This document shows, in pieces, positions 8,113 to 34,778 of a DNA stretch of 64,000 bases. The DNA lies in contig JAQBQZ010000007.1 in assembly GCA_028286725.1 (NCBI GenBank), forward strand, positions 7,262 to 71,261. Direction: 5' to 3'. The position numbers and the translations under genes are program-made. Source of the DNA: Candidatus Tayloriibacteriota bacterium (lineage in GTDB: Bacteria; Patescibacteriota; Minisyncoccia; Phycocordibacterales; CAIRYW01). The number at the start of each line of letters is the position of its first letter. Within the stretch, counting starts at the first letter, position 1. The notes under the pieces were generated by a model, which was given only the letters and a program-made list of their open reading frames with translations, did not search any database and was not told the origin of the DNA.

Positions 8113-8628
8113 ATGCCAAATACAAAATCAAAACAAAAAGATCTGTCAGCCCTACTTGTTACTAAACTATCTGTTCTTCTGGATATCGAGGAACAGCTTA
8201 TAAAGGCTCTGCCAAAGCTTGCTAAGGCGGCAACTGACAAAGAGCTGAAAGATGGATTCACAACACATCTTGATGAAACTAAAGGTCATGTCAAAAGGCT
8301 GGAGCGGGCATTCACACTTCTCAACACTAAGCCTGAAAGGGGGATGAAATCCGCTGGTATCAGAGGAATTATTGAAGATGGGGGATGGGTGATCAAAAAT
8401 GTAAAACCAAAAGAAGCACTCGATACGAATCTCATTGCTGCTGCATCTTATGCAGAACATTACGAAATGGCAGGATATATGGCAGCTTTGATCTGGGCTG
8501 AAGAATTAGGATTGTCTGAAGTGGCAGAACTTCTCGAAGCAAATCTTAAAGAAGAGGTTGCCGCGGATGAAAAGCTTGCAAAACTCGGTACAGAAAAGAT
8601 CAATGTAAAAAGTTTGAATATGGAATAA
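8113..8628 (+). CDS. ferritin-like DUF892 (YciE/YciF family) protein
   Basis: 171 aa. Pattern LLDIEEQLIKALPKLAKAA…LKDGFTTHLDETKGHVKRLERAF fits the DUF892 ferritin-like family. Confidence 0.65.
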   Translation: MPNTKSKQKDLSALLVTKLSVLLDIEEQLIKALPKLAKAATDKELKDGFTTHLDETKGHVKRLERAFTLLNTKPERGMKSAGIRGIIEDGGWVIKNVKPKEALDTNLIAAASYAEHYEMAGYMAALIWAEELGLSEVAELLEANLKEEVAADEKLAKLGTEKINVKSLNME

Positions 8629-8680
8629 TAAGAAAATTAATAAATATCTCACCAATCTATGGCGGGGTGTTTATTAATTA

Positions 8681-9622
8681 TTACTTTTTTTGATAGGCTC
8701 TGACGTAGTCAATCTCTAAATATGCAGGCCAAATGTTTGTTGCGTCAGGGGTACCGGGCCAGCTACCTTCGCCGCCTACTGCAAGATTTACTAATATGTA
8801 AAACGGCTTATCTGCGTCCGCATTATGCGGACAATTTGCATATGGTTGTCCATCAAAATAATAAGTGATCGATTCTGGTTCCCAGTCAACGCCATAAGTA
8901 TGGAAGTCTGCTGTTACATCTGTACCGGTGTCGTGCCATGCTCCGCAGATACTGTTATTTGGATTAAAATGTGATGCATAATGGATCATTGCTTCACCAC
9001 CTTCTCCATTTACAGAATTTGTATCACCAAATGCTTCCATTGCATCGATCTCTGGCGGCCAGCTTGTATCAACAGGGAGGAGCCAGAATGCTGGCCAAAG
9101 GCCTTTTCCTTTTGGGAGTTTTGCTCTTATTTCAAAGTATCCATACTGCTGTGAAAAATAATGCTGCGTTGTGATCATTCCTGAAGTGTATTTGGCCCAC
9201 GGACCAATTCCAGACTGTATTACTGTGTCTGATGGTGTTGCTTCAATACGGAGTACTCCATCTGAAATTGAAAAAGGAAATTTGCTTGTGGTCGGTAGAT
9301 TGGGGGAAGTATGTTCATTAAAGTATTTTATAAATGTCCGGTCGATGTAAATCTGCGCTTCGTTATTCGATGCTGTAGTGCGTGTGCAGTTGTAATACAG
9401 GGTTTGCCAAACACCAGCCCCATCTGTACCACAAGTTTCGTCTCCATTTGGATCTAGGTATTGTTTGAAGGTGTCAAAATCATCGTTGAAAGTGAGCTGC
9501 ATTCCACTTATAAGTTGTTCTTGTGGTGTAAGTGGGATATCGTTTTTTGTTTCATTTGACATAAGTACTATAACAATAAGACAAACGATTGTTCCCAGGA
9601 TAGCTTTAGAGCTTAATTTCAT
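8681..9622 (-). CDS. glycoside hydrolase family 16 (laminarinase / beta-glucanase), membrane-anchored
   Basis: GH16 catalytic motif E-x-D-x-x-E is present as EIDAMEAFGD. Also carries GLWPAFWLLP and the beta-jelly-roll pattern. The ATG at 9622 (MKLSSKAILGTIVCLIVIVLMS) gives a signal-anchor helix. The longer ORF, to 9706, would overlap the upstream gene by 100 bp. Confidence 0.85.
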   Translation of the reverse strand: MKLSSKAILGTIVCLIVIVLMSNETKNDIPLTPQEQLISGMQLTFNDDFDTFKQYLDPNGDETCGTDGAGVWQTLYYNCTRTTASNNEAQIYIDRTFIKYFNEHTSPNLPTTSKFPFSISDGVLRIEATPSDTVIQSGIGPWAKYTSGMITTQHYFSQQYGYFEIRAKLPKGKGLWPAFWLLPVDTSWPPEIDAMEAFGDTNSVNGEGGEAMIHYASHFNPNNSICGAWHDTGTDVTADFHTYGVDWEPESITYYFDGQPYANCPHNADADKPFYILVNLAVGGEGSWPGTPDATNIWPAYLEIDYVRAYQKK

Positions 9623-9977
9623 AGTTAAAGAGTGATCGATTTCGAGAATCGTTTCGTCCATTTCGTCGTGGTGGAGCAGGTGTTGGTCTACGATTTTCGT
9701 GCTCATCAGTTGATGAAGAAATGTTTTGTTGTGCAGGAGGATTAAAATCTGTGTTTTGATTTTGTGCTGGAGATGCTGGCGGATTTTGTGGTATTACCGT
9801 TGGGGAAGTTGCGGGGGCTATAAAATGCCTAATCTTGGTTGTTGTGGTTTGAGGCGCGGTCTTTGTTTTAGGCTGAAGTGATGCTAGCCTATCGTATTCG
9901 ACATCTAGCATCCATCCAAATGCAACGCAAAGCAACAAAACAAAAATTGTATATTCTATTTTATATTTGTATTTCAT
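9606..9977 (-). CDS. small N-terminally anchored Pro/Thr/Gln-rich protein (hypothetical)
   Basis: 123 aa. One TM helix (YTIFVLLLCVAFGWM) followed by a low-complexity PT/Q-rich tail. Its start overlaps the GT2 stop (ATGA at 9974-9977) and its stop sits 17 nt inside the GH16 start. Both overlaps suggest translational coupling. Confidence 0.45.
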   Translation of the reverse strand: MKYKYKIEYTIFVLLLCVAFGWMLDVEYDRLASLQPKTKTAPQTTTTKIRHFIAPATSPTVIPQNPPASPAQNQNTDFNPPAQQNISSSTDEHENRRPTPAPPRRNGRNDSRNRSLFNYEIKL

Positions 9978-11632
9978 ATATGTATTGGGAATATAACAAT
10001 GGCTCCAATCACTACGGCTAAGAGTACAATATATGGCCCTACCGTTTTAGCTTGCCAAAATACGAAGCCTTTTCGCGTGAGTTTTCCATCTCTAATCTCC
10101 TCTCTTTTTCCTTTTCTAACAACATAATAGAATTCAAGAAGTATCACAATGATAGAGAGAAGGTTGAAACCGATCCAATATAGTATAAGAAGGAAGTTCG
10201 GGTTCAAGAGAGTGCTTCCAGCTTTCTTTACCGAAAGCGCAATAAGAACAATATAGATGAACAAGTAGCATGCAGCGAATATTGTTACATGAACGAATTC
10301 TCCTGAGACGCTCACTTTTTTACTATTGGTAACTTTCCATCCAACAGAGCTTTTGAACATTGTCGTGAGCATCGCGTGGTAATAAGCGTAACTGTGTGCG
10401 CTTCGGGCAACAAAGTTTCCAATTCGTGGCTCGCTAATTCTATAGAGAGGCAAAACAATCGCAGAAAAAAGCATTGTAGGAATAAACGGTAATGCACTAA
10501 AGATACTTATGCTTCCTGGATAATAAAAGATAATGATGAATCCTTGAAAAGAGAGAAGTATAGCGAGAGGGTAACTCAAGTAATACATGAATCCAGAAAT
10601 AAAACACATCTTCTGTCCGAATGTAAGCTTTGAAGTCCAGAAACTTCTGTCGAACATAAGTAACAGTGTTCCAGAACACCATCTTTGCTGCTGATGAAAG
10701 TATTGATGGATGTTGTCGGGACAAATACCTACTGCGAGAATAATTGGCAGATATCGAACTTTCCAATCCTTAAGCATTAATTTAAAACCTGTATACATGT
10801 CTTCACTGTGTTCAATCTGTGCTGCTCCGCCAATTTCAGCAAGGGCTGCACGTCGATAAAGGGCATTCGAACCACAACAAATCGGAGCTCCCAGACTGTC
10901 TCGCGCTACTTGAATTGATCGGTAGAAATCTTCTTGAATGTGAGATGCTCCATATTCAAGCGGGCTTCGGCGGTGCACTTTTTCGCTCGTATCAAAGAAT
11001 TGTGGAGTCTGAATGATCGCTGTATTTTCATCCTGCATATAAGGTACGAGCTCTTTTATAAAATCTGGATGCGGCGCAAAATCAGCATCAAAAATTACAA
11101 TAAATTCTCCATTTGATCGCTCAAATCCGTACTTCAAATTACCCGCCTTTTTCATCTCGCCTTTATTTGGACGAGAGAGATATTCAAAATCAAATTTCTT
11201 GGCGAGATCAGAATATTCGCTACCTCCTTTGTCATCCAGAATATACACCTTCTTGTTTTTGTACGGTATATCCTCCACAGCTTTGCAAGTATTTTCAAGC
11301 ACCTTGACGCTCTCTCCGCAGATAGGAAGGAATATATCAACTGACGGCTCCTCTTTGATGTTTTGCCAATAATTTTCTATGAGGGCAGTATGTTTTTTGA
11401 GATTGAGCCTTTTGTAAAATATATTAATAGCGTAACTGTTTACATAATACAGAGTAAAAAAGATAACAATAGGAAGGAAAAACCAAGTATAAAATGGGCC
11501 TGATTCCATAAAGAGCCAATAGCCATAAACCACAGGAATCCAGCAAAGGATTCCGAGACCGTAAATAGCTCGCACAAGCCAAGTTGGTGTCTTGTTTATA
11601 TAGAGATACTTATTGATGTCTTTAGGATTCAT
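9974..11632 (-). CDS. processive family-2 glycosyltransferase, cellulose-synthase-like beta-glucan synthase
   Basis: 552 aa. TM helices flank a GT-A domain with DDKGG, FDADF, CCGSNALYRR, a TED-like motif (HSEDMYTGF) and QQQRW (QxxRW). This is the cellulose/curdlan synthase architecture. Confidence 0.85.
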   Translation of the reverse strand: MNPKDINKYLYINKTPTWLVRAIYGLGILCWIPVVYGYWLFMESGPFYTWFFLPIVIFFTLYYVNSYAINIFYKRLNLKKHTALIENYWQNIKEEPSVDIFLPICGESVKVLENTCKAVEDIPYKNKKVYILDDKGGSEYSDLAKKFDFEYLSRPNKGEMKKAGNLKYGFERSNGEFIVIFDADFAPHPDFIKELVPYMQDENTAIIQTPQFFDTSEKVHRRSPLEYGASHIQEDFYRSIQVARDSLGAPICCGSNALYRRAALAEIGGAAQIEHSEDMYTGFKLMLKDWKVRYLPIILAVGICPDNIHQYFHQQQRWCSGTLLLMFDRSFWTSKLTFGQKMCFISGFMYYLSYPLAILLSFQGFIIIFYYPGSISIFSALPFIPTMLFSAIVLPLYRISEPRIGNFVARSAHSYAYYHAMLTTMFKSSVGWKVTNSKKVSVSGEFVHVTIFAACYLFIYIVLIALSVKKAGSTLLNPNFLLILYWIGFNLLSIIVILLEFYYVVRKGKREEIRDGKLTRKGFVFWQAKTVGPYIVLLAVVIGAIVIFPIHI

Positions 11633-11770
11633 AAATTAGTATTTGTTATTGATATTTATGCCTGTTTCATTGTTATGTATAAAATGACGCTTTAGATTTC
11701 CTTTTATGACTAAAAGTCATTAATATCAAGTTTGGAATAAATATGCATCTTACCCGTCATCAATCTATAT

Positions 11771-13042
11771 ATGAAATATTTTAAACAAGCAAAAATCGAG
11801 GACCAAGATTTCAAAGGATATAAGAATCTTGTTCCAAAGCAATATGAAGAGGTAATAAAATTATCAGAGAATTTTTCAAAACCAAAGATTATTCATATTA
11901 ATACTGCGTTTGGCTCTGGAGGTGTTGCTGAGATCCTCAAGTGTCTTGTGCCTCTTGAAAGATCTTTAGGTCTTGAATCAGAATGGCTTATTATGCAGGG
12001 GACACCCGAATTCTTTAATGTGACAAAAAAGATACACAATCTTCTCCAAGGAAAAGAAGGATCTTTGAGCGAAGATGAAAAACAAACCTATCTTTCTTAT
12101 ACAAAGAAAGCTTCTGAAGAGTTGATGAAGTATCTTGATAAGTCATCTGGCGAACAGATCGTTATTCTTCATGATCCGCAGCCATTACCTATGATTATGG
12201 AAATTCCTGATACTATTCCTGTAATTTCGCGATTGCATATTGATATTACAAATGAGAATAAAGAGCTTGGTCAATTACTCAAACCATTTACTGATCGGGC
12301 AAAGAAAATAATTGTGAGCGACAAGAAATTTATTGCAGATTGGATTCAAGCCGACAAAGTTTTGATTAGTTTGCCTGCAACAGATCCGTTCAATGAGAAG
12401 AATAAGTTAATATCCAAAGAAGATGCTTCGGTGATCTTAAAAAAGATCGGCATAGATACAGAGAGGCCGCTTGTAAGCCAGATCTCACGATTTGATCCGT
12501 GGAAGGATCCAGAAGGTGTTATTGAGGCTTATCTTGCTGCGCGGAAGAAAATCAAAGGCTTACAGCTCGTGCTCGCAGGACTTATTGTTGCTGAAGATGA
12601 TCCTGAGGCGCAAGGCATTTATGATGAACTAAAAGATAAATATGGTGATGATCATGATATACATCTCTATGGTGAGAAAACTCCTCCTGGAGGAATTGAG
12701 AATGAAGAGTTTATTAATGCGCTCCAGACAGGCTCTGATGTTGTGGTTCAGAAATCACTTCGCGAGGGATTTGGTCTTACGGTGACTGAGGCGCTTTGGA
12801 AAGGGCAGCCAGTCATTGGTGGAAATGTGGGCGGTATCAAAAAACAGATAGTTGATGGTGAGAATGGTTTTTTGGTTTCATCGCCTGAAGAATGTGCAGA
12901 GCGGATCGTGGAGCTTATCTCTAAGCTAGAAGAGAAAGAGAGAATGGGAAAAAATGCCAAAGAGACCGTGAAAAATGAATTCCTTATGTCGCGTCTTATC
13001 TTGGATCATTTCAAGGTATATGATGAACTTTTAAAAAAGTAG
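11771..13042 (+). CDS. treT: trehalose synthase (TreT)-like GT4 glycosyltransferase
   Basis: 423 aa. The N-terminal IHINTAFGSGGVAEILKCLVPLERSLGLESEWLIMQGTPEFFNVTKKIHNLLQG matches the TreT family as I recall it. The C-terminal GT4 motif is SLREGFGLTVTEALWKGQPVIGGNVGGI…VDGENGFLV. Confidence 0.65.
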   Translation: MKYFKQAKIEDQDFKGYKNLVPKQYEEVIKLSENFSKPKIIHINTAFGSGGVAEILKCLVPLERSLGLESEWLIMQGTPEFFNVTKKIHNLLQGKEGSLSEDEKQTYLSYTKKASEELMKYLDKSSGEQIVILHDPQPLPMIMEIPDTIPVISRLHIDITNENKELGQLLKPFTDRAKKIIVSDKKFIADWIQADKVLISLPATDPFNEKNKLISKEDASVILKKIGIDTERPLVSQISRFDPWKDPEGVIEAYLAARKKIKGLQLVLAGLIVAEDDPEAQGIYDELKDKYGDDHDIHLYGEKTPPGGIENEEFINALQTGSDVVVQKSLREGFGLTVTEALWKGQPVIGGNVGGIKKQIVDGENGFLVSSPEECAERIVELISKLEEKERMGKNAKETVKNEFLMSRLILDHFKVYDELLKK

Positions 13043-15277: not shown

Positions 15278-15949
15278 ATGCGTATTTTAGTTATTGAAGA
15301 CAATCAAAAGTTAGCCGAATCGCTTGTACGAGGGTTTACCCAAGAGGGGTATGCTGCTGACTTTGTATTAAATGGGGAAGAAGGTGAAAAGCGTATAATG
15401 ATATCTGAAAAAGATTACGATATGGTTATTTTAGATATTTCACTACCAGGAAAAAATGGGATCGAAATCTGCCGATCATTTCGGAGTCAGGGTATTATGA
15501 TTCCGATTATCATGCTCACAGCTCGAGATACGGTCAAGGATAAGATGCTTGGTCTTGATAGCGGTGCTGATGATTATGTTATAAAACCATTTTCACTTGG
15601 TGAATTACTTTCACGCGTCAGAGCATTATCGAGACGTCCGAGGAATTCACTTCCTCCTATTATTGAAGTGGGTGATCTCATTTTGAATCCTGCAAATCAA
15701 GAAGTCTTTCGAGGAAAAAAGAAAATTGAATTAACCCTAAAAGAATTTCGAATATTGGAATTTTTTATGACAAAACCAAATGAGGTGGTGACACGGCAAC
15801 AGATTACTGATCATTTATGGGATTTTGATTTTAATCCATTTAGTCGTGCTATGGATGTGCATATTAACAATTTGCGTAATAAAATTGGCAATAAAAATGA
15901 AACAAAGCTTGAAACGGTGCGAGGAGTGGGCTATCTCCTTAAAGCATAA
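15278..15949 (+). CDS. OmpR/PhoB-family response regulator
   Basis: 223 aa. Receiver domain (DMVILDISLPGKNG, phospho-acceptor Asp) followed by a winged-helix domain (…LTLKEFRILEFFMTKPNEVVTRQQI…VHINNLRNKI). Confidence 0.9.
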   Translation: MRILVIEDNQKLAESLVRGFTQEGYAADFVLNGEEGEKRIMISEKDYDMVILDISLPGKNGIEICRSFRSQGIMIPIIMLTARDTVKDKMLGLDSGADDYVIKPFSLGELLSRVRALSRRPRNSLPPIIEVGDLILNPANQEVFRGKKKIELTLKEFRILEFFMTKPNEVVTRQQITDHLWDFDFNPFSRAMDVHINNLRNKIGNKNETKLETVRGVGYLLKA

Positions 15950-16898
15950 TGTATTTCTGTGGGCAAGACTGAAACTTACTTTCTTGTACGTTCTTATTAT
16001 CGCTTTTATTCTTATTGGTTTTAGCTTAGCGCTCTACACAAACATCAGCAAGAATCTTATTGATATTGGGGAGGAAACTTTTGCTGGGCCTGAGGCACAT
16101 CAGCACTTTCTTCACGAGACACTTGAGGCGACGCAAGATGAGATACTTGCTATAGATCTTATTGTACTTATTGTTTCTGCAGGACTCGGTTTCTTGCTTG
16201 CTGGGTATACTCTGAGACCAATTCAGCGATCAGTAGAAGCTCAAAGAATGTTTTCTGAAAATGCATCTCATGAGTTGCGTACGCCTCTTGCGGTCATGAA
16301 AAATGAGATAGAAGTGCTTTTACATGATCCAAATCCAGATAAAGAAAGAATCGTTCAAACTTTAAAAAGTTCGGTTGAGGAGATTGATCATATGACACGA
16401 ATGGCTGAAGATCTGCTTCTCTTGGCAAGAGCTGATAATAAAAAAGAGCTCTTCCTTACAAGAGTGGATGCTGGAGCGATAGTGAAACAAGTGATAAATA
16501 GTCTCAAATCAATCGCATCTTTAAAAGAGATTTCGCTTCACCATACTCTTAAGGATGAATTTTATATAGAAGGAAATAATGATGCGCTTCGAAGAGTTTT
16601 TATCAATATTTTGAAAAATTCGATTGATCACACATCAAAAGGCGGAACTATTACGGTTGAAGGCGATTATGAAAACGGTAAGTGCTTATTGAGTTTCATT
16701 GATACAGGTTCTGGTATTAATGAGAAAGATTTGCCTCATGTCTTTGAGAGATTTTATAAAGGAGCTGGCACATCAGGAACAGGACTCGGACTTTCGATTG
16801 TTAAAGAACTTGTTCAAAAACAAAACGGGGAAGTCGTGATTCAAAGTGAAAAAAATAAAGGAACGAAAGTGATTCTTCGATTTCCACACAGAGCATAA
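15897..16898 (+). CDS. sensor histidine kinase
   Basis: Two TM helices. H-box SHELRTPL, then N, G1 (DTGSGI) and G2 (GTGLGLSIV) boxes. Starts at the ATG at 15897 and overlaps the regulator gene by 53 nt. Confidence 0.85.
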   Translation: MKQSLKRCEEWAISLKHNVFLWARLKLTFLYVLIIAFILIGFSLALYTNISKNLIDIGEETFAGPEAHQHFLHETLEATQDEILAIDLIVLIVSAGLGFLLAGYTLRPIQRSVEAQRMFSENASHELRTPLAVMKNEIEVLLHDPNPDKERIVQTLKSSVEEIDHMTRMAEDLLLLARADNKKELFLTRVDAGAIVKQVINSLKSIASLKEISLHHTLKDEFYIEGNNDALRRVFINILKNSIDHTSKGGTITVEGDYENGKCLLSFIDTGSGINEKDLPHVFERFYKGAGTSGTGLGLSIVKELVQKQNGEVVIQSEKNKGTKVILRFPHRA

Positions 16899-24432: not shown

Positions 24433-25521
24433 ATGAAATACAATATTTTTTTGGCGGCAGTTTTTGCGCTCAGTATTATTATGTCTTCAAATGTAACATC
24501 GGCAGCCACTGCAACAACAACTCGATACGGCAGGACTTATTATTCTAATCAGTTTTACAATAATGATGGATCTGGTGAGGCAAGCACTACGCGCCAAGCG
24601 CGAATAAGACAATATCGCGGACAATCAAGCGATCTTCAAAACAAAATAAGCGCTCTTGGAACTACTGCAAATCAGATCGTAACCATGCCGGTACTTTTTG
24701 GTGTAAGTATAAATGACCTGACGCCAAATTTCGGTGATCCTCGATCAGGTGGGCGAACACATGAAGGTGAAGATATTATGGCAGTTTTGGGTACTCCGAT
24801 AGTAACACCCACAGATGCAGTTGTGATCCGTACAGGAGTAGGTGAAACAGAAGGTAATTACGTATACACCGCAAACCCTGGAGGAGAAACTTTTGTCTAT
24901 ATGCATCTTAATACTATTGGTGAGGGTGTAGTATCTGGACTTGTCTTAAAGCGAGGAGATTTGATCGGCTATGTCGGCAACACGGGTAATGCTGCAGGAG
25001 GGCCCGCACATCTACATTTTGAAATTCATAATAGTTCTGGCACACCGGTGGATCCGTTTCCTAGACTGTCTGGTGAAATTTCACTTCAGGACAAAATAAT
25101 ATATCTAACAAAAATTCTTGGACAGACAACTGATGCAAATACGCTGTCCAAATTCTTGGTATTAAATTTTAGAAACACTTTTTTATCTGCAAGAAGTGCA
25201 GGTCTTGTATTGCCTCAGTCTATTATTGACGCACTTGGTCCCATAAACACAAATCCAGGAATAGGAACTGGTGGTGGATTATCACTTTCAAGAGATCTAT
25301 ATCTAGGTATCACAGGAGACGATGTCTATGCGCTTCAGGTGTGGCTTAACCACAATGGATTTGTGGTATCGCAAAACGGGGCAGGATCTCTCGGTAACGA
25401 GACGAGATATTTTGGCTCTGCTACACAAGCAGCAGTCATAAGATTTCAAATTGCACATAATATAACACCTGTTGCAGGCTATGTAGGCAGCATTACTCGG
25501 GGAGTATTGGCTGGACTATAA
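24433..25521 (+). CDS. M23-family (LytM) peptidase with C-terminal peptidoglycan-binding domain
   Basis: Signal peptide. LytM motifs HEGEDIMAVLGTPIV and GNTGNAAGGPAHLHFEIH. C-terminal PG_binding_1-like domain GDDVYALQVWLNHNGF…FGSATQAAVIRFQ. Confidence 0.85.
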   Translation: MKYNIFLAAVFALSIIMSSNVTSAATATTTRYGRTYYSNQFYNNDGSGEASTTRQARIRQYRGQSSDLQNKISALGTTANQIVTMPVLFGVSINDLTPNFGDPRSGGRTHEGEDIMAVLGTPIVTPTDAVVIRTGVGETEGNYVYTANPGGETFVYMHLNTIGEGVVSGLVLKRGDLIGYVGNTGNAAGGPAHLHFEIHNSSGTPVDPFPRLSGEISLQDKIIYLTKILGQTTDANTLSKFLVLNFRNTFLSARSAGLVLPQSIIDALGPINTNPGIGTGGGLSLSRDLYLGITGDDVYALQVWLNHNGFVVSQNGAGSLGNETRYFGSATQAAVIRFQIAHNITPVAGYVGSITRGVLAGL

Positions 25522-27423: not shown

Positions 27424-29247
27424 ATGAATCCTGAAGATCCTAACAAAGTAGTCTATTTTGCTGAAACAGATGCGCGTAATCGCAAACTTCGTTTTGGTAT
27501 CAAAATAAAAGACCGATCTCGACATACCTACGTCATCGGTAAGACGGGAATGGGTAAATCAACTCTTCTTGAAAATCTTGCTGTCCAGGATATTCAAGAT
27601 GGACGAGGTCTCGCATTTCTCGATCCTCACGGCAAGACTGCGGACCTTCTGCTTGAATATGTTCCAGAAGAAAGAATGAAGGATGTGCTTTATTTTGCAC
27701 CTTTTGATCTCGACAATCCTATCTCATTCAATGTGCTCGAAGACGTGGGTGCAGACAAAAGACACTTGGTTGCCAACGGTCTCATGTCTGCTTTCAAAAA
27801 GATCTGGGTGGATGCATGGAGCGCCCGAATGGAATATATTTTAAATAATATTTTGCTTGCTCTTCTTGAATATCCAGACTCAACACTCATTGGTGTTAAC
27901 AGAATTTTGGCAGACGAAGACTATCGTAAAAAAGTGATCGAACATATTACTGATCCATCAGTGCGTTCTTTCTGGGTGGATGAGTTTGCAAAGTACGGAC
28001 CAAAATATATGCAGGAAGCAGGAGCCTCAATTCAAAACAAGATTGGTCAGTTTATTTCGAATCCTCTTATTCGAAACATTATCGGCCAGCCAAAATCAAC
28101 TTTTGATATTCGAGAAATGATGGATAACAAAAAGATTATTATCATGAACCTTTCAAAAGGTCTTGTAGGTGAAGCGAATGCCAACCTCTTGGGTGCGATG
28201 CTCATTACCAAGATCTATCTTGCTGCCATGAGTCGTGCGGATAAAAGAGAAGCAGAACTCGCAGAGCTTCCGAACTTCTATCTTTATGTAGATGAGTTTC
28301 AGAACTTTGCTAACGAATCGTTTGCAGATATTCTTTCTGAAGCGCGAAAATATAAACTGAACCTTACTGTTGCACATCAGTATATCGAGCAAATGACAGA
28401 AGAAGTGCGAGCTGCAGTGTTTGGAAACGTGGGAACAATGATCACTTTTCGAGTAGGCGCTTTTGATGCGGAATTTTTAGAAAAAGAATATGGACCGTTC
28501 TTTACGGCACAAGATCTAGTATCGCTCGGATTTGCTCAGATTTATTTAAAACTGATGATCGATGGTGTATCTTCAAGGCCGTTTTCTGCCATAACACTTG
28601 CACCTCTTGCAAAACCTGATCACAATCTTCGGGAAAAAATAATAGAATTATCTCGACAGACTTTCGCTCGTCGGCGAGTCGATGTTGAAAATGAGATCAA
28701 GGCTTGGCATGAAGAAGCTCAGGTTTCTACTTATGGGAATAACAATCGTAGCGGAGGTAATGGAGAGAGGTCTGCAAAAAGATCAGATCATGGAAACGGA
28801 AATGCAAGACCAAGTCCTATTGATCAAGCTCTTGCAGCAGTATTAGGTAAAGCACCAGCACCAAAGCCAGTACAACAAATATCACAATCAAATCCACAGT
28901 CAAATACTAGTGAGCAAAAAAGAGATCCTGCATATGATAGAGAACGAGATCTTCGTAAGGCGGTATCCTTAAGCTATTTGAGACAGACGAATCAAAAACC
29001 AAAGGAGAAAAAGCTTCCTTCAGAGGAGCATCTTGCGGATCTTCGAAGTGCACTGGCTGCTGTTGTGTCATCAGAGGCTCTTCCAGAAGCTCCAAAGGCT
29101 GAGCCTTCTCCGAGACCAATTCATCATGCATCACCAGTTCAAGAAAAAGCTCCAGAAAGAAAAGAGCCTACAAACCCTGAAGTAAAACAAGAAGAAAAAA
29201 GAGAGGTGCCTGAGGATATTTTGAAAAGAATTCTTGAAATTCAATAA
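27424..29247 (+). CDS. VirD4/TraG/TraD-like type IV coupling-protein-family P-loop ATPase, with a long disordered C-terminal tail
   Basis: 607 aa. Walker A GKTGMGKST, Walker B FYLYVDEFQNF, then NLTVAHQY (the TraG/VirD4 ATQS-like motif). No TM segment. The last ~170 aa are P/A/K/E/S/Q-rich low complexity. Confidence 0.55.
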   Translation: MNPEDPNKVVYFAETDARNRKLRFGIKIKDRSRHTYVIGKTGMGKSTLLENLAVQDIQDGRGLAFLDPHGKTADLLLEYVPEERMKDVLYFAPFDLDNPISFNVLEDVGADKRHLVANGLMSAFKKIWVDAWSARMEYILNNILLALLEYPDSTLIGVNRILADEDYRKKVIEHITDPSVRSFWVDEFAKYGPKYMQEAGASIQNKIGQFISNPLIRNIIGQPKSTFDIREMMDNKKIIIMNLSKGLVGEANANLLGAMLITKIYLAAMSRADKREAELAELPNFYLYVDEFQNFANESFADILSEARKYKLNLTVAHQYIEQMTEEVRAAVFGNVGTMITFRVGAFDAEFLEKEYGPFFTAQDLVSLGFAQIYLKLMIDGVSSRPFSAITLAPLAKPDHNLREKIIELSRQTFARRRVDVENEIKAWHEEAQVSTYGNNNRSGGNGERSAKRSDHGNGNARPSPIDQALAAVLGKAPAPKPVQQISQSNPQSNTSEQKRDPAYDRERDLRKAVSLSYLRQTNQKPKEKKLPSEEHLADLRSALAAVVSSEALPEAPKAEPSPRPIHHASPVQEKAPERKEPTNPEVKQEEKREVPEDILKRILEIQ

Positions 29248-29421: not shown

Positions 29422-29603
29422 CTCAAAATTAACCGCATAAGTAATTATAAACCAATGCTTGAATATCTAAAGTCCAAAATTTCGGTAAAAAATGAAGTTT
29501 CGTCAGTCAACATAACACAGTTATGTCTCCTTCCTCATCCTTCATTTTTTCCTGCGAAATTTTGGTCTTTATCTTATTCATTAATTTTGAGATAGATTCT
29601 AAA
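29422..29603. repeat. intergenic repeat family, copy B
   Basis: About 93% identical to copy A over ~150 bp. Stem 29472-29484 with 29555-29567 carries a compensatory A-U to C-G change relative to copy A. Confidence 0.8.
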
Positions 29604-30827
29604 ATGCAACATAAGAAGCGAATACTTATATTTTCCCTTGTATATTACCCAAATTTTATAGGTGGTGCAGAAGTTGCAATCAAGGAAATTACTGATCGAC
29701 TAGGGCACGCCCAAGGGACTTTTGATACACAAAACTCCAGTGGGCAAGCTTTTGAGTTTGATATGGTAACACTTCATCTTGATTCACATCTCCCAAAGGT
29801 AGAGCGAATTGGCAACGTCACAATTCACCGTGTTGGTTGGACAAGTGATGAAAATGTGTCCGCAGATTCACTTCCAAAATCACTCCATTTAAATAAATAT
29901 GCGATGCTCCTAACAGCATTTTGGGAGGCGATGAGACTCCAGCATAAACACAAATACGATATTATTTGGAGTATGATGGCAACGTACAATTCCTTTGCGG
30001 CGCTCTTTTTCAAACTTTTGAATCCAAAAGTAAAATTCCTTCTGACACTTCAAGAAGGGGATCCAATTCCATTCATCAAACGCCGTGCACGACCTCTCTG
30101 GCCTCTTTTTAAGATGATATTTACTCGCGCAGACACTATTCAAGCTATTTCAAAATATCTTGCTGACTTCGGAATTGAAATGGGGGCGAAGTGTCCTGTG
30201 GTTGTGGTACCAAATGCGGTTGATATAAAACACTTTACACAAGAATATTCTGTCGAAGAGATAAATGAGATCAAAAAAAAGCTGAACAAAAAAGAAGGAG
30301 ACATATTTTTGATTACCACATCACGTCTTGTGACCAAAAACGCAGTAGAGGATATTGTTAAGGCAATGCCGTTACTTCCAGAAAATATCAAGCTCGTTAT
30401 TGCAGGAAGAGGATATTTGGAAGATTCAATCCGTAAGCTTTCGGTAATGCTTGGGGTAGAGAATCGAATTCAATTTTTGGGCTGGCTCACACACACTGAT
30501 ATGCCAAAGTATCTTAAAGCCTCAGATATATTCATTCGTGTACCGATTTCAGAAGGATTCGGTAATTCATTTGTTGAGGCGATGGCATGTGGACTTCCTT
30601 GTGTTACAACTCCTGTGGGTGGAATCTTGGATTTTCTTCGAGACCGTGAGACGGGAATATTTGCAGAAGTTCGTAATCCTGAAAGTGTAGCAAAAGCAGT
30701 GACGGAACTCGTCCGTAATCCAGAACTTGTGTCCCGGATAAAACGACAGTCTTTTGAAATGGTCAAAGAAAAATATGATTGGCCAATGATTGCAGATGAA
30801 ATGAAGAAGGTGTTTTTAAATATATAA
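29604..30827 (+). CDS. GT4-family glycosyltransferase
   Basis: Start set at the ATG at 29604, after the repeat element. GT4 C-terminal motif ISEGFGNSFVEAMACGLPCVTTPVGG…ETG. Confidence 0.85.
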   Translation: MQHKKRILIFSLVYYPNFIGGAEVAIKEITDRLGHAQGTFDTQNSSGQAFEFDMVTLHLDSHLPKVERIGNVTIHRVGWTSDENVSADSLPKSLHLNKYAMLLTAFWEAMRLQHKHKYDIIWSMMATYNSFAALFFKLLNPKVKFLLTLQEGDPIPFIKRRARPLWPLFKMIFTRADTIQAISKYLADFGIEMGAKCPVVVVPNAVDIKHFTQEYSVEEINEIKKKLNKKEGDIFLITTSRLVTKNAVEDIVKAMPLLPENIKLVIAGRGYLEDSIRKLSVMLGVENRIQFLGWLTHTDMPKYLKASDIFIRVPISEGFGNSFVEAMACGLPCVTTPVGGILDFLRDRETGIFAEVRNPESVAKAVTELVRNPELVSRIKRQSFEMVKEKYDWPMIADEMKKVFLNI

Positions 30828-30831
30828 ATAA

Positions 30832-31557
30832 ATGGATAATCACTCAGGAAAAATAAATTTTGATTTAAAGGAACGGGCAGAGGGGTCTATTAATGCTGCT
30901 AAGAACATTATTCTTGCCTCAATACCAGAAAATGAGATTGTTACAATCTGCGTAAAAGGGAGCTATGCGCAAGATGCTTTACAGGAAAAAAGTGATGTAG
31001 ATTTGGTATTAATTCTTAAAAACAATTCATCATTTCAAAAAGCATACTCATTAAGTGATCAGGGGAAGGAATTTGTTCCTCCTTTTTCAATTTCTGTATA
31101 TACCCAAGAGGAATTGAAAAGCGGCAAAGTTATAGAAAATCGATCAAGAGCACCATGGTCAATCAGTCGATTCAACAAAAATATTTCTGACATGCCGATT
31201 ATTTATGGGCAAATACCTGAGGGAGAATTTTTTATGAGAACAGATGAAAGGGATCTTTCAATTGATATCAGTACCGTGAAAGAAAAAGTTGTCCCTGAAT
31301 ACAGGTTAGGTAAATTGAGTTTTTATGAACTGTTAAAATGGGTGACCAGGCTTACGGAGTCAGAGCAAAGATTAAAAGGCTTTAGATCCTATCTATGGAA
31401 GAGAAATGCACTAAATACAAATGATCCAGGTCACATCATTCATGAGGCTTTACGACTGAGGGTATTGAGTGATGTTTCTGAAGAAGATAAAAAAAGTTTT
31501 TTGATAAGATTTGAGGAATATATTACACTACTTGAACAAGATATAAAAAATGAATAA
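30832..31557 (+). CDS. nucleotidyltransferase-domain protein (Pol-beta superfamily, KNTase/Lnu-like architecture)
   Basis: 241 aa. GSYAQDALQEKSDVDLVLIL is the GS-x(9-13)-DxD NTase signature. A helical C-terminal domain of ~140 aa follows. Confidence 0.5.
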   Translation: MDNHSGKINFDLKERAEGSINAAKNIILASIPENEIVTICVKGSYAQDALQEKSDVDLVLILKNNSSFQKAYSLSDQGKEFVPPFSISVYTQEELKSGKVIENRSRAPWSISRFNKNISDMPIIYGQIPEGEFFMRTDERDLSIDISTVKEKVVPEYRLGKLSFYELLKWVTRLTESEQRLKGFRSYLWKRNALNTNDPGHIIHEALRLRVLSDVSEEDKKSFLIRFEEYITLLEQDIKNE

Positions 31558-32893
31558 TTACAAAGAATATTTCAAAGATAAAAAAATCACTCAACTTGGA
31601 CTTGGACTTCTTGGTCGTGGGCTTGGGGACGCGATATTCCTTGCTGAATGCGGAGCAGAGCTTATTGTAACGGATCTCAAAACTGAAGAAGAGCTTAAGA
31701 CTTCAGTAGAAAAATTAAAAGGATATCCTAACATTACTCTTCATCTCGGGGGACATAATCTTGAAGATTTTAAAGCCCGAGATTTTATTTTAAAAGGAGC
31801 CGGGGTGCCGCTTGATTCAATATATATAGAAGAGGCTCGAAAGAATAATATTCCAATCGAAATGGATTCATCGCTCTTTTGCAAGCTTCTTCCAAAAGAA
31901 GTTATCACGATCGGTGTCACTGGCACTCGTGGCAAATCTACTGTGACACATCTCATTAATCATATTTTGAAAGGTGTTGGTAAAAAAACAATTCTCGGGG
32001 GGAATGTCCGTGATATGGCGACACTTCCTTTAATCAAAGATATTCAGCAAGGGGTCCGACCCCTTGCTGAGATTGTTGTGCTCGAACTCGATAGTTGGCA
32101 GCTTCAGGGATTTGGAGATGCAAAGATATCTCCTCGTATCGCAATCTTCACTGCATTTATGCATGACCACACCAACTACTACAAATCTACCCCAGAAATG
32201 TCTGGTCACGAGAGATATTTTGCCGACAAGTCAAATATTTATCTATATCAAAAAAGAGGGGATACTTTAGTTGCTGGAGAAACTATTTCGAATGTTATTG
32301 CTTCAAAACCTCATGGAGATGGAGAATTGACCATTGCACGTAGATCAGATGTTTCAGTAGATTGGAAACCAAAAATAATTGGAGAACATAATGTTTCAAA
32401 TATTGCTTGCGCGATTGAAGCTTGTAAGGCAATAGGGATTAGTATTGAAGATATCAAAAAAGGAGTAGAAAGTTTTCTAGGGGTAGAAGGGCGACTTCAG
32501 TTTGTAAAAGAAATAAATGGGGTGAAAATTTATAATGATAACAATGCTACAACTCCTGAAGCGACAATTGCTGCATTAAAATCTTTAGATACTAACATTG
32601 TATTGATTTGCGGTGGGTCAGATAAAGGTTTGGAATTAAATGGGCTTGTAGAGGAAATAAATAAAACCTGTAAATCTATTATTCTTTTGCCTGGATCTGG
32701 AAGTGATAAACTCACAATATTATCTACCAAAGTTCAAAACTTATCTGAGGCAGTTACTGAGGCTGTTAAAGTGGCAAAGTTTGGCGATACGATTCTCTTC
32801 AGTCCTGCATTTGCTTCATTTGGACTCTTCAAAAACGAATACGAAAGAAATGACGAATTTATGAAAATAATAAATGAAATAAAAAATGATTGA
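31550..32893 (+). CDS. murD: UDP-N-acetylmuramoylalanine--D-glutamate ligase
   Basis: 447 aa. N-terminal Rossmann pattern LGLGLLGRGLGDA, Mur ligase P-loop GVTGTRGKSTVTHL, and the C-terminal LFSPAFASFGLFKNEYERNDEFMK typical of MurD. Confidence 0.85.
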   Translation: MNNYKEYFKDKKITQLGLGLLGRGLGDAIFLAECGAELIVTDLKTEEELKTSVEKLKGYPNITLHLGGHNLEDFKARDFILKGAGVPLDSIYIEEARKNNIPIEMDSSLFCKLLPKEVITIGVTGTRGKSTVTHLINHILKGVGKKTILGGNVRDMATLPLIKDIQQGVRPLAEIVVLELDSWQLQGFGDAKISPRIAIFTAFMHDHTNYYKSTPEMSGHERYFADKSNIYLYQKRGDTLVAGETISNVIASKPHGDGELTIARRSDVSVDWKPKIIGEHNVSNIACAIEACKAIGISIEDIKKGVESFLGVEGRLQFVKEINGVKIYNDNNATTPEATIAALKSLDTNIVLICGGSDKGLELNGLVEEINKTCKSIILLPGSGSDKLTILSTKVQNLSEAVTEAVKVAKFGDTILFSPAFASFGLFKNEYERNDEFMKIINEIKND

Positions 32894-33428: not shown

Positions 33429-33457
33429 GTCATTTTTTGTGGTATTATATTACTCAA

Positions 33458-34768: not shown

Positions 34769-34778
34769 TTTCTAATAA

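What the first reader, a model, noticed from the sequence alone, without database searches (positions are those of the whole stretch)
8681..11632. Translationally coupled operon: cellulose-synthase-like GT2 glucan synthase, then a Pro/Thr-rich anchored protein, then a GH16 glucanase
A processive GT2 is followed, with ATGA start/stop overlap, by a 123-aa single-TM protein with a PT/Q-rich disordered tail. That gene overlaps the start of a membrane-anchored GH16 enzyme (catalytic motif EIDAMEAFGD). The GT2 carries all four cellulose/curdlan-synthase motifs: D,D, DxD, TED and QxxRW. GH16 enzymes act on beta-1,3 or beta-1,3-1,4 glucans. The trio therefore predicts synthesis and trimming of a curdlan-like or mixed-linkage beta-glucan. 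The PT-rich protein may stand in for a BcsB-like periplasmic partner. An exopolysaccharide of this kind in a reduced-genome organism could mediate attachment to a host cell.
Basis: partly seen in the sequence, partly recalled or inferred. Interest (0 to 1): 0.6.

Follow-up and report, generated by a model that had tools for sequence, protein, structure and literature searches.

The report
CPR glucan synthase plus anchored GH16
A tiny-genome bacterium (Candidatus Taylorbacteria) carries a tightly packed three-gene operon for a cellulose-synthase-like sugar-polymer pump, a small mucin-like membrane protein and a membrane-tethered beta-1,3-glucanase-type enzyme; the pump-glucanase pair recurs in related bacteria, so it probably makes and trims an unstudied surface beta-glucan, but which glucan cannot be told from sequence.

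Summary
Three minus-strand genes are packed as described: a 552-aa GT2 (9974-11632), a 123-aa single-pass protein (9606-9977, ATGA overlap) and a GH16 (8681-9622/9706). Two corrections: the 'TED' motif reads SED, and orthologues put the GH16 start at 9622, so the overlap is 17 nt, not 101.

The window is from a Candidatus Taylorbacteria MAG (Patescibacteria). The GT2 has the BcsA fold without a PilZ domain. It belongs to a well-supported Patescibacteria clade about 22% identical to each of BcsA, BgsA and a CrdS-like protein, and 19% to NodC/PgaC. It is therefore a processive cellulose-synthase-superfamily enzyme, but phylogeny does not give the linkage.

The GH16 is laminarinase-like by sequence and fold, type-II anchored, with ExDxxE intact. 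Its orthologues sit beside GT2 orthologues in many Patescibacteria and have co-diverged with them. That is the best evidence that it acts on the synthase product, and it favours a glucan containing beta-1,3 links.

The small protein is a real but orphan family of seven known members. It is not BcsB-like. It occupies the position where other lineages have peptidoglycan-binding modules or a second synthase.

Verdict: new variant of a known kind (synthase plus cognate hydrolase), moderately interesting.

The parts
9974..11632 (-). GT2-A: PilZ-less, BcsA-fold, membrane-integrated processive glycosyltransferase (552 aa). Layout: two N-terminal TM helices, a cytoplasmic GT-A domain, interface helices with QQQRW, a gating-loop-like WKVTNSK, and C-terminal TM helices including an extra last helix at 520-547.
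   Evidence: Pfam PF00535/PF13632/PF13641. NCBIfam CelA 185.5 bits, below the 699 cutoff; PgaC 57 and NodC 51. PDB phmmer hits are BcsA only, E about 1e-35; the family profile scores 190 bits to BcsA. AF2 pLDDT 86, pTM 0.85. Foldseek best hits are BcsA 9b8v_E and 4p00_A. Motif positions. 100% identical to NCBI 'hypothetical protein JWP09_362 [Candidatus Taylorbacteria bacterium]'.
9606..9977 (-). Small type-II (N-in, C-out, inferred) single-pass membrane protein of 123 aa. Conserved N-terminus MKYKYKIEYT + TM helix + [KR]IxHxIAPA, then a fast-evolving S/T/P/Q/N-rich tail ending in a basic tip.
   Evidence: ORF. No Pfam or NCBIfam hit. Orthologues in L001, L087, L088 (uncalled there) and L089, plus P0243 and P0244. 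Only 4 cluster representatives in 1.84 billion proteins. Hydropathy and composition.
8681..9622 (-). Type-II membrane-anchored GH16 of 313 aa from the ATG at 9622 (the longest ORF runs to 9706; NCBI starts at 9661). Laminarinase-like beta-jelly roll with the beta-bulge catalytic motif E191-I-D193-A-M-E196.
   Evidence: PF00722 8e-24 and PF03935 31.1 bits. NCBIfam EglC 191 bits, below the 700 cutoff. PDB hits are laminarinases 3atg, 4dfs and 3azx at E about 1e-30. AF2 pLDDT 94.8. Foldseek best hits 3azx, 4dfs, 2hyk, 7wwc and 4crq with TMt 0.75-0.82. Start codon inferred from orthologue alignment.
9974..9977 (-). ATGA stop/start overlap between GT2-A and the small ORF (translational coupling signature).
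   Evidence: Sequence read. The same overlap, or a 1-2 nt gap, occurs in L001, L087, L088 and L089.
9606..9622 (-). 17-nt overlap between the 3' end of the small ORF and the preferred GH16 start.
8650..8664 (-). Weak terminator-like hairpin 17 nt after the GH16 stop; a possible operon end.
   Evidence: This is a consensus match only: 4 such sites were found in the region against 2.5 expected by chance.
11633..11770 (.). 138-bp divergent intergenic region between the operon and a TreT-like trehalose synthase gene; presumed promoter region. No sigma-70 consensus was detected here.

Best explanation
This is a three-gene, translationally coupled envelope operon of a Candidatus Taylorbacteria (Patescibacteria) cell.

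Step 1 (fold and motifs shown; activity inferred). GT2-A is a single-subunit, BcsA-type synthase. Its cytoplasmic GT-A domain, with D133/D134, D182-x-D184, E277-D278 and Q314xxRW318, adds a sugar from a UDP-sugar to the non-reducing end of a growing beta-glycan. The most likely donor is UDP-glucose. The chain is pushed through the enzyme's own transmembrane channel. There is no PilZ domain, so c-di-GMP gating as in BcsA is not expected. An extra C-terminal helix probably places the C-terminus outside the cell.

Step 2 (location inferred from the anchor; specificity inferred from family). The GH16 is tethered to the outer face of the same membrane by an N-terminal signal anchor. It cleaves, sizes, releases or re-ligates the emerging chain. 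It is of the laminarinase (endo-beta-1,3 / beta-1,3(4)) type and has co-inherited with the synthase. The polymer therefore most likely contains beta-1,3 linkages, i.e. it is curdlan-like or mixed-linkage.

Step 3 (inferred, weakest). The small protein is a membrane-anchored, wall-spanning mucin-like stalk with a basic tip. It sits where related genomes carry peptidoglycan-binding modules or a second synthase. It probably tethers or organises the synthase or the polymer at the cell wall, and is not part of catalysis.
For: - Gene packing and its conservation in five contigs.
- BcsA-like sequence, profile and fold.
- Family-invariant catalytic motifs.
- Clear separation from NodC/PgaC.
- The GH16 is closest to characterised laminarinases in sequence and structure, with catalytic residues invariant.
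- GH16 orthologues lie within a few kb of GT2-A orthologues in 9 of the 35 Patescibacteria-type loci from the genome scan. All 9 are among the GT2-A relatives 43-57% identical to the query.
- Two of three extra GH16-anchored look-ups also had the synthase next door.
- At least 31 contig lengths are shared between the two independent homologue lists (my count from the tables).
- Pairwise identities of GT2-A and GH16 correlate across 13 loci: r=0.55, Mantel p about 0.002.
- PG_binding_1 is fused to the C-terminus of many GT2-A homologues or encoded just downstream. This places that end, and the system, at the wall.
- Precedent from established knowledge: synthase-dependent polysaccharide operons usually carry a hydrolase for their own product, e.g. 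BcsZ with BcsA (a GH8 gene is seen next to bcsA). GH16 ExoK/ExsH process nascent succinoglycan (PMC4916376).
Against: - No biochemical data exist for any member of the GT2-A clade.
- The enzyme is about 22% identical to BcsA, BgsA and the CrdS-like protein alike and clusters with none of them.
- Published modelling of a related enzyme concluded that structure cannot tell cellulose synthesis from mixed-linkage synthesis (PMC10374906).
- GH16 substrate class is inferred from family resemblance. NCBIfam's best model (EglC) and all other equivalog models are far below their cutoffs.
- About three quarters of the Patescibacteria GT2-A loci have no GH16 within 10 kb. One GH16 orthologue sits alone.
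- No UDP-glucose supply gene was identified in the window.
- The role of the small protein is argued only from position and composition.
Confidence: 0.5

Rival explanations
1. GT2-A makes plain cellulose (beta-1,4-glucan). The GH16 is not a processing enzyme for it but a scavenging or attack enzyme for foreign beta-1,3-glucans, such as fungal or algal walls or laminarin. Its position next to the synthase would then reflect shared surface expression, not shared substrate.
For: The best-scoring characterised relatives of GT2-A are all cellulose synthases, by NCBIfam, PDB sequence and fold search. JGI pipelines name the homologues 'cellulose synthase (UDP-forming)'. Most GT2-A loci lack a GH16.
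Against: GH16 and GT2-A co-localise in many lineages, in different orientations, and co-diverge. A cellulose operon would be expected to carry a GH8, GH5 or GH6 endoglucanase, and none is present. A membrane-tethered enzyme is poorly placed to forage on insoluble foreign walls. GT2-A lies outside the BcsA clade, which has 100% bootstrap support for BcsA itself.
Confidence: 0.2
2. The GH16 works mainly as a transglycosylase. It would cut the nascent glucan and graft it onto another wall polymer (peptidoglycan or another glycan) or onto other glucan chains. This would resemble fungal Crh (GH16) chitin-glucan cross-linkers or the type-II membrane GH16 proteins Kre6/Skn1 of beta-1,6-glucan assembly. 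The glucan would then be a covalent wall component rather than a released exopolysaccharide.
For: The GH16 has type-II membrane topology like Kre6/Skn1. PF03935 SKN1_KRE6_Sbg1 is matched at 31.1 bits against a cutoff of 30, and more strongly in orthologues. PG_binding_1 is recurrently fused to or adjacent to the synthase. From established knowledge, GH16 is a retaining family in which transglycosylases have evolved several times.
Against: The closest structures are hydrolytic laminarinases. The PF03935 match covers only a short stretch around the conserved core (residues 172-210). No acceptor-site features were examined. Hydrolase and transglycosylase cannot be told apart from sequence here.
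Confidence: 0.15
3. GT2-A polymerises a sugar other than glucose (a chitin-, PNAG-, hyaluronan- or mannan-like polymer), and the GH16 acts on something else.
For: The fold search also returns hyaluronan and chitin synthases with probability 1.00. Donor specificity was not tested.
Against: CelA scores 185 bits against PgaC 57 and NodC 51. Identity is 22% to the glucan synthases and 19% to NodC/PgaC, and NodC+PgaC fall outside in 87% of bootstraps. BcsA ranks first in every search. No deacetylase or UDP-GlcA gene is in the operon.
Confidence: 0.07
4. The 123-aa ORF is a decayed remnant, either of the second synthase GT2-B or of a PG-binding linker protein, or it is not a functional gene at all. 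The functional unit would then be only GT2-A plus GH16.
For: It sits exactly where GT2-B or PG_binding_1 proteins sit in related loci. The tail evolves fast: 43% identity against 80% for GT2-A. The family is tiny. One gene caller missed it in L088.
Against: The ORF is intact at 107-127 codons in seven members despite a 38% GC background. Its N-terminal 56 residues are conserved, the tail composition is conserved, the basic C-terminus is conserved, and the start overlaps the GT2 stop in every case. A profile of GT2-B N-termini matches it at only 4.4 bits, i.e. hydrophobic-helix level.
Confidence: 0.1

Closest known systems
Bacterial cellulose synthase BcsA (with BcsB, BcsZ)
   Same: Same fold and motif set: GT-A domain, D/DxD/xED/QxxRW, an FFCGS-like CCGS, a gating-loop-like motif, and an integral TM channel. 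BcsA is the best hit in every sequence and structure search. The operon logic of a synthase plus a cognate extracytoplasmic glycoside hydrolase is also shared.
   Different: No PilZ domain and no BcsB homologue. Two rather than four N-terminal TM helices, and an extra C-terminal helix. Only about 22% identity, in a separate clade. The partner hydrolase is GH16, not GH8. The score is far below the NCBIfam CelA cutoff.
Curdlan synthase CrdS (crdASC) and mixed-linkage glucan synthase BgsA (bgsBA) of Rhizobiaceae
   Same: PilZ-less BcsA-like synthases of about 650 aa that make beta-1,3 or beta-1,3-1,4 glucans. These are the products the GH16 neighbour would predict.
   Different: GT2-A is about 22% identical to BgsA (pSymB, L098), to a BgsA-like protein (pAtC58, L093) and to a CrdS-like protein in a crdASC-like arrangement (pAspH13-3a, L092). 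Those three group with BcsA (92% bootstrap), not with GT2-A. No CrdA/CrdC-like or BgsB/HlyD-like partner is present. The L092 protein is called CrdS-like from gene order and size only (PMC10819609), not from an authenticated sequence.
GH16 laminarinases (e.g. Thermotoga maritima 3azx, Nocardiopsis 2hyk, Cellulosimicrobium 3atg), the laminarinase-type group of GH16
   Same: ExDxxE beta-bulge catalytic motif, a WPAFWLL motif and the jelly-roll fold. 28-30% identity, TM-scores 0.75-0.82 normalised to the target, E about 1e-20 to 1e-30.
   Different: The enzyme is membrane-anchored (type II). It has an additional conserved, cysteine-containing N-terminal region of about 100 residues that the PDB sequence matches do not cover. 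It is genomically tied to a synthase rather than to a catabolic locus. CAZy subfamily was not assigned because dbCAN was not available.
Rhizobial EPS-processing GH16 glycanases ExoK/ExsH/EglC
   Same: The next-closest sequence tier outside Patescibacteria consists of GH16 proteins with RTX repeats or DUF5648, at 35-48% identity. EglC is the best NCBIfam model, at 191 bits over residues 67-339. Functionally these are GH16 enzymes that cut a polysaccharide made by the same cell (PMC4916376).
   Different: Below the equivalog cutoff (191 against 700). The rhizobial enzymes are secreted or periplasmic, not type-II anchored. They act on a Wzx/Wzy-type heteropolysaccharide, not on a synthase-dependent homopolymer.
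Fungal Kre6/Skn1 (type-II membrane GH16 proteins of beta-1,6-glucan assembly)
   Same: Type-II membrane anchor plus a GH16 domain. PF03935 is matched at threshold, and matched without a weak or faint mark in two orthologues.
   Different: The match is short and borderline. There is no long cytoplasmic N-terminal tail. The overall best matches are bacterial laminarinases.

Membership tests
Cellulose-synthase superfamily of membrane-integrated processive GT2 synthases (BcsA/CesA/CrdS/BgsA/HAS/Chs type) | GT-A domain with D, DxD, (T/S)ED and QxxRW motifs | tested here: met
   DDKG at 133, DAD at 182, SED at 276, QQQRW at 314. These residues are invariant across 16 family members.
Cellulose-synthase superfamily of membrane-integrated processive GT2 synthases (BcsA/CesA/CrdS/BgsA/HAS/Chs type) | GT domain embedded between TM helices that form a translocation channel (BcsA-like fold) | tested here: met
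   AF2 pLDDT 86, pTM 0.85. Foldseek top hits are BcsA (E 1.8e-21, TMq 0.57-0.65), followed by CesA, HAS, CslF6 and Chs.
BcsA proper (UDP-forming cellulose synthase catalytic subunit, TIGR03030/NF008558) | Score at or above the curated equivalog cutoff | tested here: not met
   185.5 bits against a cutoff of 699.1, and 138.7 against 992.
BcsA proper (UDP-forming cellulose synthase catalytic subunit, TIGR03030/NF008558) | C-terminal PilZ domain (c-di-GMP control) | tested here: not met
   No PilZ in Pfam. The alignment to BcsA stops before its PilZ domain. The protein ends in a TM helix.
BcsA proper (UDP-forming cellulose synthase catalytic subunit, TIGR03030/NF008558) | BcsB partner encoded alongside | tested here: not met
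   phmmer with an E. coli plasmid BcsB fragment against all ORFs of the window and of four sister loci gave no hit at E<=10.
BcsA proper (UDP-forming cellulose synthase catalytic subunit, TIGR03030/NF008558) | Phylogenetic placement inside the BcsA clade | tested here: not met
   NJ tree on 490 columns with 300 bootstraps. The BcsA pair has 100% support and BcsA+Bgs/Crd 92%. GT2-A falls in a separate clade with 96% support.
Curdlan synthase CrdS / mixed-linkage synthase BgsA | Phylogenetic placement with CrdS or BgsA | tested here: not met
   The Bgs/Crd-like group has 93% support and excludes GT2-A, at about 22% identity. Caveat: the CrdS reference is a crdASC-like plasmid copy, not the authenticated ATCC 31749 protein.
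Curdlan synthase CrdS / mixed-linkage synthase BgsA | Partner genes crdA/crdC or bgsB (HlyD-type adaptor) | tested here: not met
   No hit at E<=10 in the window or in the sister loci.
Curdlan synthase CrdS / mixed-linkage synthase BgsA | Product is a beta-1,3 or beta-1,3-1,4 glucan | not testable with these tools
   This needs linkage analysis of the product. Only indirect support is available, from the laminarinase-type GH16 neighbour.
Glycoside hydrolase family 16, laminarinase type | GH16 domain above the Pfam gathering score, with a beta-jelly-roll fold | tested here: met
   PF00722 84.4 bits against 22. AF2 pLDDT 94.8. Foldseek hits to laminarinases at E about 1e-20 to 1e-21.
Glycoside hydrolase family 16, laminarinase type | Catalytic ExDxxE (beta-bulge) motif intact | tested here: met
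   E191-I-D193-A-M-E196. All three acidic residues are invariant in 28 homologues.
Glycoside hydrolase family 16, laminarinase type | Closer to beta-1,3-glucanases than to lichenase, agarase, carrageenase or porphyranase subfamilies | tested here: met
   By PDB sequence, laminarinases score 1e-30 to 1e-14, lichenases 1e-8 to 1e-4, and carrageenase/agarase 1e-5 to 1e-4. Fold ranks 1-24 are all laminarinases or beta-1,3(4)-glucanases.
Glycoside hydrolase family 16, laminarinase type | Formal CAZy subfamily assignment and measured endo-beta-1,3-glucanase activity | not testable with these tools
   dbCAN and CAZy subfamily HMMs are not available here, and no enzymology is possible.
Kre6/Skn1 family (PF03935) | Full-length match to the family model | tested here: inconclusive
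   31.1 bits against a cutoff of 30, but only residues 172-210 align and no stretch passes on its own. The precomputed listings show PF03935 without a weak or faint mark for the L087 and L088 orthologues.
   No Pfam or NCBIfam hit. No phmmer hit with BcsB. The protein is 123 aa, of which 90 are low-complexity tail.

The most novel reading that the evidence does not exclude
Many Patescibacteria (CPR) would build a previously unrecognised beta-1,3-containing glucan layer on or in their cell wall. The dedicated module would consist of a PilZ-less BcsA-fold synthase (GT2-A), usually a second very divergent synthase (GT2-B), a membrane-tethered GH16 that cuts or grafts the chain, and peptidoglycan-binding domains fused to or encoded beside the synthase. 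The window would show a stripped-down Taylorbacteria version, in which GT2-B and the PG-binding domain are replaced by an orphan mucin-like stalk protein. Such a polymer could be the glue or shield at the episymbiont-host interface.
Probability: 0.3. Interest if true: 0.65.

Novelty: new variant of a known kind. Interest (0 to 1): 0.42.

Why it matters
Little is known about what covers the surface of CPR/Patescibacteria cells, which live attached to or dependent on other microbes and have very small genomes. A conserved, compact synthase-plus-glucanase module gives a concrete, testable candidate for a surface or wall polysaccharide in this group. The genes are short, single-subunit and free of c-di-GMP control, so they are practical targets for heterologous expression. 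They would also add an uncharacterised clade to the cellulose-synthase superfamily, in which the rules that set beta-1,3 versus beta-1,4 linkage are still unknown. If the product turns out to be ordinary cellulose, the finding is routine.

Tried and rejected
1. Small ORF as a remnant of the GT2-B N-terminus. By eye the two sequences share AFGxW...E[FY]D-like residues. A profile of ten GT2-B N-termini scored only 4.4 and -0.1 bits against the two small proteins, which is hydrophobic-helix level. Rejected as unsupported.

2. Streptomyces relatives as the CslA-GlxA system. The 34-39% identical Streptomyces homologues have no glyoxal-oxidase/GlxA neighbour. A glucose/sorbosone dehydrogenase and unannotated ORFs flank them instead. 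That characterised system therefore cannot be used to transfer function.

3. Word-index search with the conserved 66-residue N-terminus of the small protein found no candidates. The exhaustive HMMER search then found 4 representatives.

4. Literature searches on Patescibacteria + cellulose synthase, CPR + GH16, curdlan synthase + GH16 + operon, and Patescibacteria + exopolysaccharide found no description of this module.

5. Rfam found no RNA element anywhere in the window. The promoter scan gave fewer sigma-70-like sites than chance and none in the upstream intergenic region.

6. TreT-like trehalose synthase as part of the system. It is divergently adjacent in the window but is not next to the operon in the 80%-identical relative. 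It is treated as a neighbour only.

7. The AFDB fold library was unavailable. An authenticated CrdS, Tts/Gtf-2, RiGT2 and Streptomyces CslA could not be obtained for the tree.

Full report
**1. What is there**

Three ORFs lie head-to-tail on the minus strand:
- a 552-aa protein at 9974-11632
- a 123-aa protein at 9606-9977
- a GH16 protein whose longest ORF is 8681-9706

The sequence read shows ...CAT ATA TGA with ATG AAA TAC in the +1 register.

The next gene upstream (11771-13042, plus strand) is divergent and encodes a TreT-like GT4. The next gene downstream (8113-8628, plus strand) is convergent and encodes a DUF892 protein. The three genes therefore form a self-contained unit. A weak hairpin followed by a T-run sits 17 nt after the last stop. 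There is no convincing terminator between the genes. That scan is only a consensus match: it found fewer promoter-like sites than chance and none in the upstream intergenic region.

**2. Source**

The 552-aa protein is 100% identical to 'hypothetical protein JWP09_362 [Candidatus Taylorbacteria bacterium]' on a 186,706-bp contig. The GH16 is annotated there as 'glycoside hydrolase family 16', 326 aa. Window GC is 35-42% throughout, with no compositional island at the locus. The 'reduced-genome organism' guess is right: this is a Patescibacteria/CPR genome.

**3. The GT2**

- Pfam gives GT2 families only.
- NCBIfam ranks the cellulose synthase model CelA first, at 185.5 bits. That is far below its 699 cutoff. 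PgaC scores 57 and NodC 51.
- The only PDB sequences matched by phmmer are BcsA proteins, at about 1e-35. A profile of 16 family members scores 190 bits to BcsA and reaches plant CesA and CslF6 only weakly.
- The AlphaFold model is confident (pLDDT 86, pTM 0.85).
- The best structural matches are BcsA from E. coli and Cereibacter, then plant CesA, hyaluronan synthase, CslF6 and chitin synthases.

Motifs: DDKG at 133, DAD at 182, SED at 276 (not TED), QQQRW at 314, CCGS at 252 (BcsA has FFCGS), and WKVTNSK at 432 where BcsA has its FxVTxK gating loop. The catalytic positions are invariant in the family alignment.

There is no PilZ domain. The model shows two N-terminal TM helices, the GT domain, interface helices, and a C-terminal bundle that ends in an extra helix at 520-547. 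Many homologues continue after that helix into a PG_binding_1 domain, and that domain must be outside the membrane. I therefore infer that the C-terminus is extracytoplasmic. This is an inference from the model and the fusions, not a measurement.

**4.

I collected reference proteins from annotated plasmid records:
- E. coli and Kozakia BcsA
- S. meliloti pSymB BgsA, which sits next to its adaptor-subunit gene and a diguanylate cyclase gene
- a BgsA-like/HlyD pair on pAtC58
- a 655-aa synthase on pAspH13-3a, in a three-gene, 4.9-kb co-directional cluster that matches the published description of crdASC (PMC10819609)
- NodC and PgaC

The tree was neighbour-joining on 490 well-occupied columns with 300 bootstraps. 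Bootstrap support:

| Grouping | Support |
|---|---|
| Patescibacteria GT2-A clade | 96% |
| GT2-A clade plus uncharacterised actinobacterial, cyanobacterial, spirochaetal and Bacteroidetes homologues | 87% |
| BcsA + BgsA/CrdS-like | 92% |

The window protein is 21-23% identical to every one of BcsA, BgsA, BgsA-like and CrdS-like. It is 19-20% identical to NodC/PgaC and 32-37% identical to the uncharacterised non-CPR homologues.

True chitin and hyaluronan synthase sequences were not in the tree; in the fold search they ranked below BcsA and plant CesA. The protein has the full architecture of a membrane-integrated processive synthase. But it is not a CrdS, a BgsA or a BcsA. Linkage cannot be read from this tree. 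This agrees with a published conclusion for a related Gram-positive enzyme, that models cannot separate cellulose synthesis from mixed-linkage synthesis (PMC10374906). The Streptomyces relatives are not the characterised CslA-GlxA system.

**5. The GH16**

- PF00722 is matched at 8e-24.
- The best PDB sequence matches are endo-beta-1,3-glucanases/laminarinases (3atg, 4dfs, 3azx, 2hyk, 2vy0), at 1e-27 to 1e-30.
- Lichenases, carrageenases and agarases score many orders of magnitude weaker.
- The AlphaFold model is very confident (pLDDT 94.8). Its top 24 structural neighbours are all laminarinases or beta-1,3(4)-glucanases.
- The catalytic motif EIDAME is the beta-bulge ExDxxE form, and its three acidic residues are invariant in 28 homologues.

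The second refutation test (an agarase or carrageenase subfamily) is therefore also not met.

Outside Patescibacteria, the nearest sequences are proteobacterial GH16 proteins with RTX repeats. The best NCBIfam model is EglC, at 191 bits, below its cutoff. This is the ExoK/ExsH/EglC group of rhizobial glycanases, which cut the cell's own exopolysaccharide (PMC4916376).

Start codon. The orthologues in L001, L088 and L089 all begin MK + hydrophobic helix. This aligns with the ATG at 9622 in the window. That start gives a 313-aa type-II anchored enzyme and a 17-nt overlap with the small ORF.

**6. The small protein**

It has no family match. It is nevertheless real.
- The 80%-identical relative has a 127-aa orthologue.
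- Three contigs with 73-75% identical GT2 have orthologues of 107-117 aa. One of these was missed by the gene caller.
- An exhaustive HMMER search of 1.84 billion representatives found just four clusters, adding two more members.

All members begin MKY[KR]... at an ATGA overlap with, or 1-2 nt after, the synthase stop. They share:
- a TM helix (LLxC.G.GW)
- an [IV]xHLIAPA-like motif
- a variable S/T/P-rich tail (54% P+T+S+Q+N in the window protein)
- a basic C-terminal tip

The lysine-rich N-terminus suggests an N-in, C-out orientation, so the tail would lie outside.

It shows no similarity to BcsB, CrdA/CrdC-like or BgsB proteins. I tested whether it is a decayed N-terminus of the second synthase found in other lineages, and the result was negative.

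**7.

A scan of one genome per species returned 80 loci. I called ORFs in all of them and searched with the three window proteins.

In the Patescibacteria whose GT2-A is 43-57% identical, the usual module has three parts:
- GT2-A.
- A second, very divergent cellulose-synthase-like protein that I call GT2-B. It is about 19% identical to GT2-A, has QQMRW, and gives a weak PF03552 match. It is translationally coupled to GT2-A.
- A GH16 orthologue, usually convergent.

This module is seen in L005-L010, L012, L016, L021, L028 and L099.

GT2-A is often fused to PG_binding_1. Alternatively it is followed by a small secreted protein made of a signal peptide, a G/S/T-rich linker and PG_binding_1, and then by a CAP-domain protein.

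GH16 orthologues were found within 10 kb of GT2-A in 9 of the 35 Patescibacteria-type loci of the scan. None was found in the actinobacterial, cyanobacterial or spirochaetal loci.

Approaching from the GH16 side gives the same picture. At least 31 contig lengths are shared between the top GH16 and top GT2 homologue lists (my count from the tables). Two of three further large-contig GH16 orthologues sit directly beside the synthase or synthases. Across 13 non-redundant loci, pairwise identities of GT2-A and GH16 are correlated: r=0.55, Mantel p about 0.002.

The window's subclade is the exception. It has no GT2-B and no PG_binding_1, its GH16 is co-directional, and the orphan stalk protein lies in between.

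**8. How it most likely works**

Shown:
- the gene packing
- fold and motifs of a BcsA-type synthase
- fold and catalytic residues of a laminarinase-type GH16
- membrane anchors on both accessory proteins
- conserved and co-diverging linkage of synthase and GH16

Inferred:
- The synthase uses UDP-glucose and extrudes a beta-glucan through its own channel.
- The tethered GH16 acts on that chain by trimming, release or grafting.
- The chain therefore contains beta-1,3 bonds.
- The stalk protein organises or tethers the system at the wall, functionally replacing the PG-binding modules of other lineages.
- No PilZ domain is present, so regulation differs from BcsA.

I put about 0.5 on this whole chain. 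Individual confidences are higher for 'processive beta-glycan synthase' (about 0.8) and for 'GH16 acts on its product' (about 0.6).

**9. Rivals**

- Plain cellulose with an unrelated scavenging GH16 (0.2).
- GH16 acting mainly as a wall-grafting transglycosylase, in the manner of Crh or Kre6/Skn1 (0.15). This is compatible with the main model.
- A polymer that is not a glucan (0.07).
- A non-functional small ORF (0.1).

**10. Novelty and score**

No paper in the searchable library describes this module. The GT2 is deposited as 'hypothetical protein'.

Conceptually it is a synthase-dependent polysaccharide operon with its cognate hydrolase, which is a well-known kind. The new elements are:
- the uncharacterised GT2-A clade
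- the GH16 partner in place of GH8/GH6
- the peptidoglycan-binding fusions and the second synthase in relatives
- the orphan stalk protein

I rate it a new variant of a known kind, interest 0.42. It would rise to about 0.65 if a CPR-wide beta-1,3-containing wall or surface glucan were demonstrated.

Noticed in passing
L003 4373-6004; L006 4343-6004; L009 11844-13505; L021 8394-10004; L099 8385-10034 (not in the window): Most Patescibacteria relatives carry a second, very divergent cellulose-synthase-like GT2 ('GT2-B': about 540-590 aa, QQMRW, DxDF, AEDMLTG, weak PF03552 plant-CesA match). It is translationally coupled to the GT2-A orthologue and is only about 19% identical to it. This two-synthase arrangement is uncharacterised. 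It is absent from the 64-kb window.
   Followed up: partly
P0014, P0019, P0023, P0080 (C-termini); L005 7712-8233; L014 2207-2677; L019 2013-2570; L022 4784-5194; L029 11645-12172: Many GT2-A homologues are fused at the C-terminus to a PG_binding_1 (PF01471) domain. Others are followed by a small protein made of a signal peptide, a G/S/T-rich linker and PG_binding_1, and then by a CAP/SCP-domain protein. This suggests the synthase is physically coupled to peptidoglycan.
   Followed up: partly
window 11771-13042 (+): TreT-like trehalose synthase (PF21269 1e-37; NF041139 329 bits, below the 775 cutoff), divergently adjacent to the operon. It is another NDP-glucose-using enzyme, but it is not next to the operon in the 80%-identical relative.
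   Followed up: partly
window 29523-39048 (+): A run of GT4 glycosyltransferases (29523-30827, 35790-36878, 36875-37909) interleaved with two Mur-ligase paralogues (31550-32893, 33437-34768) and a nucleotidyltransferase (30832-31557). This is an unusual mix of wall-precursor ligases and glycosyltransferases.
   Followed up: no
window 24433-25521 (+): M23 peptidase with a C-terminal PG_binding_1 domain. This is the same wall-binding domain that is fused to GT2-A in other Patescibacteria.
   Followed up: no
window 27424-29247 (+): A 607-aa protein with weak VirD4/TrwB-type coupling-protein and HerA-like ATPase matches (E about 1e-6 to 1e-7).
   Followed up: no
window 15278-16898 (+): A two-component pair: an OmpR-type response regulator at 15278-15949, and a histidine kinase whose longest ORF (from a TTG at 15825) overlaps it by 125 nt. 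The true kinase start is probably further downstream. Identification is from the translations only, not from a domain search.
   Followed up: no
L044-L056, L049, L060, L064, L091 (not in the window): The nearest non-CPR relatives of GT2-A (32-39% identity) form an uncharacterised clade in Streptomyces and other Actinomycetota, Spirochaetota, Bacteroidetes and filamentous cyanobacteria (including a Leptolyngbya boryana plasmid). The Streptomyces copies are not the CslA-GlxA locus, and none of these loci has a GH16 neighbour.
   Followed up: partly
window 8681-9706 (-): Three different start codons are in play for the GH16: 9706 (longest ORF), 9661 (the NCBI annotation, 326 aa) and 9622 (supported by orthologues). 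Only the last gives an N-terminus that begins directly with the membrane anchor.
   Followed up: yes
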